64,000 nucleotides of DNA from the NCBI GenBank assembly GCA_964016885.1, contig OZ024748.1:13020001-13084000 (forward strand), in the 5' to 3' direction. Within the stretch, counting starts at the first letter, position 1, and each line of letters opens with the position of its first letter. Shown in pieces: positions 55,798 through 55,839 of this stretch. The position numbers were made by a program, and so were the translations under genes. Source of the DNA: Eledone cirrhosa. Lineage: Eukaryota. The notes under the pieces were generated by a model. The model was not told the origin of the DNA, searched no databases, and saw nothing but the letters and a program-made list of their open reading frames with translations.

Positions 55798-55839
55798 GGC
55801 TCTGATGAACGCCAACCAGCGTGAAACAGAATGTCAGCT
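55798..55839 (+). ncRNA. Canonical type I hammerhead ribozyme, solo, sense to Dll intron 1
   Basis: ggct CTGATGA acgc-caacca-gcgt GAAA ca-gaa-tg TC agct: all core nucleotides intact, three paired stems, GUC cleavage triplet (cut after C55835). Confidence 0.8.

What the first reader, a model, noticed from the sequence alone, without database searches (positions are those of the whole stretch)
55798..55839. Solo, fully canonical sense-strand hammerhead inside Distal-less intron 1
Seen: ggct-CUGAUGA-acgc(caacca)gcgt-GAAA-ca(gaa)ug-UC-agcu, with an intact core, GUC triplet and three paired stems. No inverted partner arm was seen, and it is on the same strand as Dll about 12 kb downstream of the exon-1 donor. 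A second hairpin follows (aagaagtgac-ata-gtcacttctt, ~55861-55883). Inference: it could cut the nascent pre-mRNA of an appendage-patterning gene, affecting splicing kinetics or output, like intronic ribozymes known in vertebrates. Its stems are short, so it may equally be a weak or inactive recent PLE remnant.
Basis: partly seen in the sequence, partly recalled or inferred. Interest (0 to 1): 0.75.

Follow-up and report, generated by a model that had tools for sequence, protein, structure and literature searches.

The report
Truncated retrozyme copy in Distal-less intron
The hammerhead motif is real and lies in Distal-less intron 1, but it is a cut-short copy of a very common 316-base jumping repeat and one of seven hammerhead motifs in that intron, so it is likely a weakly cutting passenger rather than a regulator of the gene.

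Summary
The motif is real: intact type I hammerhead core, GUC site at 55835/55836, sense strand of Dll intron 1 (72,252 nt; exons 2-3 found downstream). It is neither solo nor fully canonical. It is the 5'-truncated end (55791-55959) of a dispersed repeat with a 316-nt unit and thousands of copies. The family shows Penelope-type insertion marks and no ORF, which fits a non-LTR retrozyme. Full copies close stem I with 19 more pairs; this copy keeps 2. It has also lost the loop III palindrome and carries a 16-nt inverted remnant at its 5' junction. It is about 4% diverged from the family majority and is predicted to fold worse than nearly all intact copies. Intron 1 holds 7 hammerhead motifs (4 sense, 3 antisense), not fewer than the genome background (16 per 400 kb) predicts. 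Verdict: an ordinary retrozyme remnant; regulation of Dll is unlikely. Cleavage, expression and cross-species conservation are untested. The scan noted similar elements before on other DNA, including this genome.

The parts
43381..43678 (+). Dll exon 1, coding part; donor GT at 43679
   Evidence: Splices in frame to exons 2 and 3 found 72 kb and 179 kb downstream, giving a 283-aa homeodomain protein
43679..64000 (+). Start of Dll intron 1 (72,252 nt in all, ends beyond the window)
55774..55789 (-). 16-nt inverted piece of the same repeat family at the 5' junction (5' inversion remnant)
   Evidence: 16/16 match to the family on the minus strand; 12 of 30 family copies have 5' inversions; 0.3% of random positions match as long
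55791..55959 (+). 5'-truncated copy of the 316-nt-unit hammerhead repeat: 45 nt before the cut site, 124 nt after
   Evidence: Matches begin at this base; 7 substitutions and one 4-nt indel against the family majority
55793..55795 (+). UAC internal loop of stem I, the likely tertiary-contact partner of loop II; closed by only 2 bp here, 19 bp in full copies
   Evidence: Constrained folds; role inferred from PMC4209133 and PMC6155905
55798..55839 (+). Type I hammerhead motif, stems 4/4/3 bp, predicted cut between 55835 and 55836
55831..55831 (+). Loop III C-to-A change that breaks the family's 9-nt stem III palindrome
   Evidence: A form 11 exact matches genome-wide, C form 416; self-duplex -2.1 vs -6.9 kcal/mol
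55843..55862 (+). 3' strand of the distal stem I, left without its partner by the truncation
55861..55883 (+). Second hairpin; part of the repeat, made perfect here by a private change at 55880
55960..56019 (.). (CA)3(TA)n microsatellite, the likely insertion target
   Evidence: most family copies run into (TA)n at their 3' end

Best explanation
The motif is the hammerhead of a non-coding 316-nt-unit repeat, present here as a 5'-truncated copy in Dll intron 1, likely inserted by a borrowed Penelope-like reverse transcriptase and predicted to cut the nascent RNA weakly or not at all. SHOWN: high copy number, 316-nt period, no ORF, scattered 5' ends, two preferred 3' ends 30 nt apart at (TA)n, 5' inversions, and the losses in this copy. 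INFERRED for the family: transcripts self-cleave, probably as dimers through the palindromic stem III, into unit-length RNA that may circularise. A PLE endonuclease/RT would prime at (TA)n and copy the RNA, often for more than one unit. INFERRED for this copy: copying stopped 45 nt past the cut site with a short inversion. The stem I loop lost its clamp, and later mutations broke the dimer palindrome and added a competing helix over the cut site. It is transcribed only as part of the Dll pre-mRNA and decays neutrally.
For: 40 scored hits at 91-100% identity from 2,790 candidates. Exact 24-28-nt words occur 233-416 times. Period is 316 nt. In 30 copies picked by a downstream word (first 30 of 405), 5' ends lie 9-438 nt before the cut, 20 of 30 end at +138 or +168, 12 of 30 have 5' inversions and 9 of 30 exceed one unit. 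Two intact cores 310-319 nt apart occur at 5 distinct places among 90 loci (loci partly chosen for length). PLE protein fragments lay in 9 of those 90 loci, none contiguous with the unit's 5' end. These marks match PLE insertions (10.1101/2021.04.23.441226, passages) and retrozyme units of 170-400 nt (PMC7229834, passages). The hammerhead fold costs 10.7 and 14.6 kcal/mol here (135- and 180-nt contexts) against a median of 8.4 in 34 intact copies; 5 of 34 and 0 of 34 are as bad. Intron 1 has 4 sense and 3 antisense motifs; background is 16 per 400 kb, 0 in 20 resamplings.
Against: Core, GUC site, all 11 pairs and the UAC loop letters survive: only 34 of 66 family copies with intact core letters keep all 11 pairs. 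Nearest-neighbour energies ignore Mg2+ and tertiary contacts and disfavour the active fold even in full copies, so only the comparison is meaningful. Until the transcript reaches about 55871 the penalty is 8.9-9.6, close to the family value. The intron persists for 60 kb, at least 15 min at the mammalian rate quoted in PMC10274809, so slow cutting could add up. No autonomous partner was found.
Confidence: 0.85

Rival explanations
1. Passenger with real but unselected activity: the copy cuts a fraction of nascent Dll transcripts during the long wait for exon 2, and the cell tolerates it.
For: Intact core, GUC, 3-bp stem III that needs no dimer; small folding penalty in the first ~35 nt after the site; 60 kb to the acceptor. 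PMC7229834 (section 15) reports 6% and 22% monomer cleavage in an hour for two weak axolotl motifs.
Against: Distal stem I lost; competing helices on both sides; only 1 of 9 predicted Xenopus retrozyme dimers cleaved in vitro (10.64898/2026.07.22.740005).
Confidence: 0.1
2. Domesticated intronic ribozyme that tunes Dll splicing or output, like CPEB3 or the amniote RECK motif.
For: Sense strand, intact core, long distance to the next exon; domestication of retroelement hammerheads is proposed for amniotes (PMC6155905, passage).
Against: Divergence of 7 in 169 nt (4.1%) matches the family mean of 4.6%, which implies a young insertion. No excess conservation of the motif. Changes since insertion mostly worsen or do not affect the predicted fold. 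Three more sense motifs in the same intron and no strand bias in Dll introns (5 sense, 7 antisense).
Confidence: 0.03
3. The copy is the broken 3' end (pseudo-LTR) of an autonomous, protein-coding Penelope-like element rather than of a protein-less unit.
For: All insertion marks are PLE-like; earlier scan notes in other genomes reached this reading for similar cassettes.
Against: Long copies wrap into the same 316-nt unit (up to 438 nt upstream of the cut) instead of entering an ORF. One young PLE family tested (830-aa frames) shares no sequence with the unit beyond simple repeats.
Confidence: 0.05

Closest known systems
Metazoan non-LTR retrozymes (Cervera and de la Pena 2020, PMC7229834, passages and section 15 read; Li et al. 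2026 preprint 10.64898/2026.07.22.740005, parts 1-3 of 5 read)
   Same: Non-coding unit of 316 nt, 39% GC, type I hammerhead with 6-position proximal helix I, 4-bp helix II and short palindromic helix III; thousands of copies; tandem dimers exist; intronic copies are common (about 43% in Xenopus).
   Different: Mostly dispersed 0.5-1.9-unit copies with PLE-type tails and inversions in the loci seen, no long arrays seen; this copy is under one unit; circular RNA not tested.
Penelope-like element insertions (Neptune/Naiad type; Craig et al. 2021, 10.1101/2021.04.23.441226, passages read; Cervera and de la Pena 2014, PMC4209133, parts 1-2 of 4 read)
   Same: 5' truncation, partial tandems, adjacent inverted 5' copy, 30-nt tail, (TA)n targets, hammerhead in the repeat.
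   Different: No RT/GIY-YIG ORF; the hammerhead is the canonical type with an extended helix I, not the minimal PLE type.
Conserved intronic ribozymes of amniotes: RECK/HH9-type hammerheads (PMC6155905, passages) and CPEB3 (PMC10274809, abstract and passages)
   Same: Sense-strand self-cleaving motif inside a long intron.
   Different: Those are conserved across species at one site. This is a young member of a repeat family, truncated, and scores far below the HH9 cut-off. The EMBO Reports paper on RECK was not held.

Membership tests
Canonical type I hammerhead | CUGANGA / GAAA / UH core with three helices, helix I open | tested here: met
Canonical type I hammerhead | G10.1-C11.1 closing pair of helix II | tested here: not met
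   A-U in this copy and in the family majority; G-C called highly conserved in PMC4209133
Canonical type I hammerhead | Helix I internal loop closed by a distal stem, for the loop 1-loop 2 contact | tested here: not met
   2 of 19 distal pairs left in this copy; 20 of 30 family copies are long enough to keep all
Canonical type I hammerhead | Palindromic helix III/loop 3 allowing the dimeric form | tested here: not met
   Present in the family, broken here by C-to-A at 55831
Canonical type I hammerhead | Self-cleavage | not testable with these tools
   needs an assay
Non-LTR retrozyme | Non-coding repeat unit of about 170-400 nt, under 45% GC, with a type I hammerhead | tested here: met
   316 nt, 39% GC, no linked ORF
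Non-LTR retrozyme | Family has copies with two consecutive hammerhead units | tested here: met
   5 distinct places among 90 loci; this copy itself has one partial unit
Non-LTR retrozyme | Linear and circular unit-length RNAs | not testable with these tools
   needs RNA data; 9 of 30 copies longer than one unit fit a circular or multimeric template
Penelope-like element | 5' truncation, partial tandems, inverted 5' copy, 30-40-bp tail, microsatellite target | tested here: met
Penelope-like element | RT plus GIY-YIG ORF | tested here: not met
Domesticated intronic ribozyme | Conserved at the orthologous intron site across species | not testable with these tools
   No related genomes held
Domesticated intronic ribozyme | Motif better conserved than its flanks | tested here: inconclusive
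   1 of 42 vs 6 of 127 changes; no signal, small numbers
Domesticated intronic ribozyme | Not one of many young repeat copies | tested here: not met

The most novel reading that the evidence does not exclude
The truncated copy folds and cuts in the short window before the competing helix forms, or slowly during the 60-kb wait for exon 2, so a young retrozyme insertion acts as a timer that lowers Dll output. It would be one case of a genome-wide load of about 100,000 hammerhead motifs shaping the splicing of long introns in this animal.
Probability: 0.05. Interest if true: 0.7.

Novelty: new member of a known kind. Interest (0 to 1): 0.14.

Why it matters
As it stands it is an ordinary remnant. 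Its use is as a base rate: with about 40 hammerhead motifs per Mb, a sense-strand hammerhead in a long intron of this genome is the default, not a signal. If cutting in vivo were shown, it would be an invertebrate counterpart of CPEB3-like control arising from a young transposon in an appendage-patterning gene, and it would raise the question of how this genome splices introns that carry several ribozymes.

Tried and rejected
Rfam at gathering score: no hit in the window; E-value mode gave only simple-repeat noise and a sub-threshold HH9 match. Exon 1 alone had no Pfam match. My first strict scan suggested a lone hammerhead; it missed short-stem-III motifs, corrected. Exon 1 boundary slips were fixed. 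The 'distal stem' column was out of register and is not used. Sequencing runs: no RNA holder listed. Presence/absence of the insertion in other individuals: contigs and RAD reads did not span the 5' junction, no verdict. Summed contig depth over the motif was about 10,000 times the unique flank, but the tool warns this is no copy number. Autonomous partner: one young PLE family checked, no shared sequence beyond simple repeats; other families not checked. Self-cleaved 5' ends as insertion starts: 0 of 30 copies begin at the cut site. Literature: searches for 'hammerhead ribozyme' + 'octopus' and 'cephalopod' + 'Penelope' + 'transposable element' + 'intron' listed no paper on this family; only listings were seen, and repeat libraries and supplements were not checked. 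Earlier-findings look-ups by sequence, relatives and nearness were blank.

Full report
Observation. The sequence at 55798-55839 is as described: a type I hammerhead with stems of 4, 4 and 3 bp, an intact core and a GUC site, with the predicted cut between 55835 and 55836. A strict descriptor finds it once in the window and never in 300 resampled windows, so it is not chance. Rfam has no hit at gathering score; HH9 matches at 19.9 bits against a cut-off of 52. The hairpin at 55861-55883 is real.

Host gene. I fetched 200 kb downstream. Exon 1 (to 43678), exon 2 (115,931-116,112 in window-extended numbering) and exon 3 (from 222,669) splice in frame to a 283-aa protein with a Pfam homeodomain. 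The Dll label rests on recalled homeodomain motifs; the species was not tested. Intron 1 is 72,252 nt, assuming no unseen exon. The site is on the sense strand, 12,157 nt after the donor and 60,095 nt before the acceptor.

What it is. The stretch from 55791 matches a dispersed repeat: 40 scored hits at 91-100% identity from 2,790 candidates, and 3,600 candidates for a longer query. Exact 24-28-nt words occur 233 to 416 times with 0 control hits. One copy fell in 400 kb of evenly spaced sample and three hammerhead-region copies in the 264-kb Dll region. From these I estimate 2,000-10,000 copies. The unit is 316 nt, 39% GC, with no linked ORF. In the first 30 of 405 copies picked by a word just after the cut site, 5' ends scatter from 9 to 438 nt upstream and none starts at the cut. 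Twenty end at two points 30 nt apart, running into (TA)n. Twelve carry a 5' inversion and nine exceed one unit. Two intact cores in tandem occur at 5 distinct places among 90 loci. These are the insertion marks described for Penelope-like elements (10.1101/2021.04.23.441226, passages) on a unit that fits the non-LTR retrozymes (PMC7229834; preprint 10.64898/2026.07.22.740005).

This copy. It begins 45 nt before the cut and ends 124 nt after it, at a (CA)3(TA)n tract. A 16-nt inverted family piece abuts its 5' end (55774-55789). In full copies helix I continues past a UAC internal loop into 19 more pairs; here 2 remain. Loop-loop contacts between helices I and II are described as needed for efficient cleavage in vivo (PMC4209133; PMC6155905). 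The family's stem III region is a 9-nt palindrome suited to the dimeric form. This copy has C-to-A at 55831, seen 11 times genome-wide against 416 for C, which weakens the self-duplex from -6.9 to -2.1 kcal/mol. It differs from the family majority at 7 of 169 positions, the family mean being 4.6% (those copies were chosen for similarity, so the mean is biased low). A private G at 55888 lets downstream RNA pair across the cut site, and the inverted piece pairs with the UAC strand.

Folding. The active fold costs 10.7 and 14.6 kcal/mol in two contexts, against a median of 8.4 for the 34 of 66 family copies that keep all 11 pairs; 5 of 34 and 0 of 34 are as bad. The model penalises the active fold in full copies too, so only the difference counts. 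Against my reading: the core is intact, the penalty is only 8.9-9.6 until about 35 nt past the site have been made, putting the family base back at 55880 slightly raises the penalty, and the intron persists for at least 15 min at the mammalian rate quoted in PMC10274809.

Base rate. A relaxed scan finds 16 hammerhead motifs in 400 kb of sample and 0 in 20 resamplings, or roughly 100,000 genome-wide (rough, as motifs cluster). A 72-kb intron should hold about 3, or 1.4 per strand. Intron 1 holds 7 (4 sense: 55802, 76007, 97296, 114373; 3 antisense) and intron 2 holds 5 (1 sense). Most others are short-stem-III motifs of other families. There is no visible selection against sense motifs in this gene, though numbers are small.

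Mechanism. Most likely the family's RNA self-cleaves, probably as a dimer, to unit length and is copied into (TA)n by a PLE enzyme in trans (inferred; helper not found). This copy is a dead-end product carried along in Dll pre-mRNA, with little or no cutting (0.85). Unselected partial cutting (0.10), an autonomous PLE tail (0.05) and domestication (0.03) are the rivals; the first of these overlaps with the main reading.

Comparison. It works like a retrozyme monomer fragment, and the family meets the sequence criteria for non-LTR retrozymes; circular RNA and cleavage are untested. It fails the ORF test for an autonomous PLE. It differs from RECK/HH9 and CPEB3 ribozymes in being young and repetitive; cross-species conservation could not be tested because no related genome is held and reads did not span the junction. 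I found no paper on this family in the listings; supplements and repeat libraries were not seen and may list it.

Verdict. Real motif, ordinary origin: a new member of a known kind. Interest 0.14.

Noticed in passing
Family-wide, e.g. L126, L136, L138, L146: A large subfamily carries linked changes that should weaken the ribozyme: GUU instead of GUC at the cut, U-U at the base of stem II, a shorter loop II and UAC to UGC in the stem I loop. The GUU word occurs 286 times against 416 for GUC. It amplified well, so strong cleavage may be dispensable or tuned down; the axolotl HHR_Amex2 also has a U-U base.
   Followed up: partly
window 8368(-), 16567(+), 35967(-), 36083(+), 39231(-, doubtful): Further hammerhead motifs of other families upstream of Dll; 35967 and 36083 form an inverted pair.
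   Followed up: no
window 56824-56880 (+): A core-mutated copy (CCGAUGA) of another hammerhead family, 1 kb downstream in the same intron.
   Followed up: no
L033 and L035 (extended 91,042-91,219 and 111,640-112,044): More copies of the same family in Dll intron 1, two hammerhead regions on the antisense strand and one inverted pair. They could pair with the sense copy in the pre-mRNA and form double-stranded RNA, a possible editing substrate.
   Followed up: no
L081:2-2182 and L151-L180: A very young PLE family with 830-aa frames: all 150 scored matches 99-100% identical over the C-terminal 143 aa. No CUGANGA-type hammerhead was evident by eye in 1.5 kb downstream in the six copies printed.
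   Followed up: partly
window 16326, 26374, 32499, 32820, 32953, 45943, 53800 and others: Many copies of another short (TA)n-inserted repeat turned up in the peptide-motif scan; possibly the scrambled-hammerhead family of earlier scan notes, not checked.
   Followed up: no
Dll locus, window 43381 to extended ~223,000: Dll spans about 180 kb with introns of 72 kb and 107 kb.
   Followed up: yes
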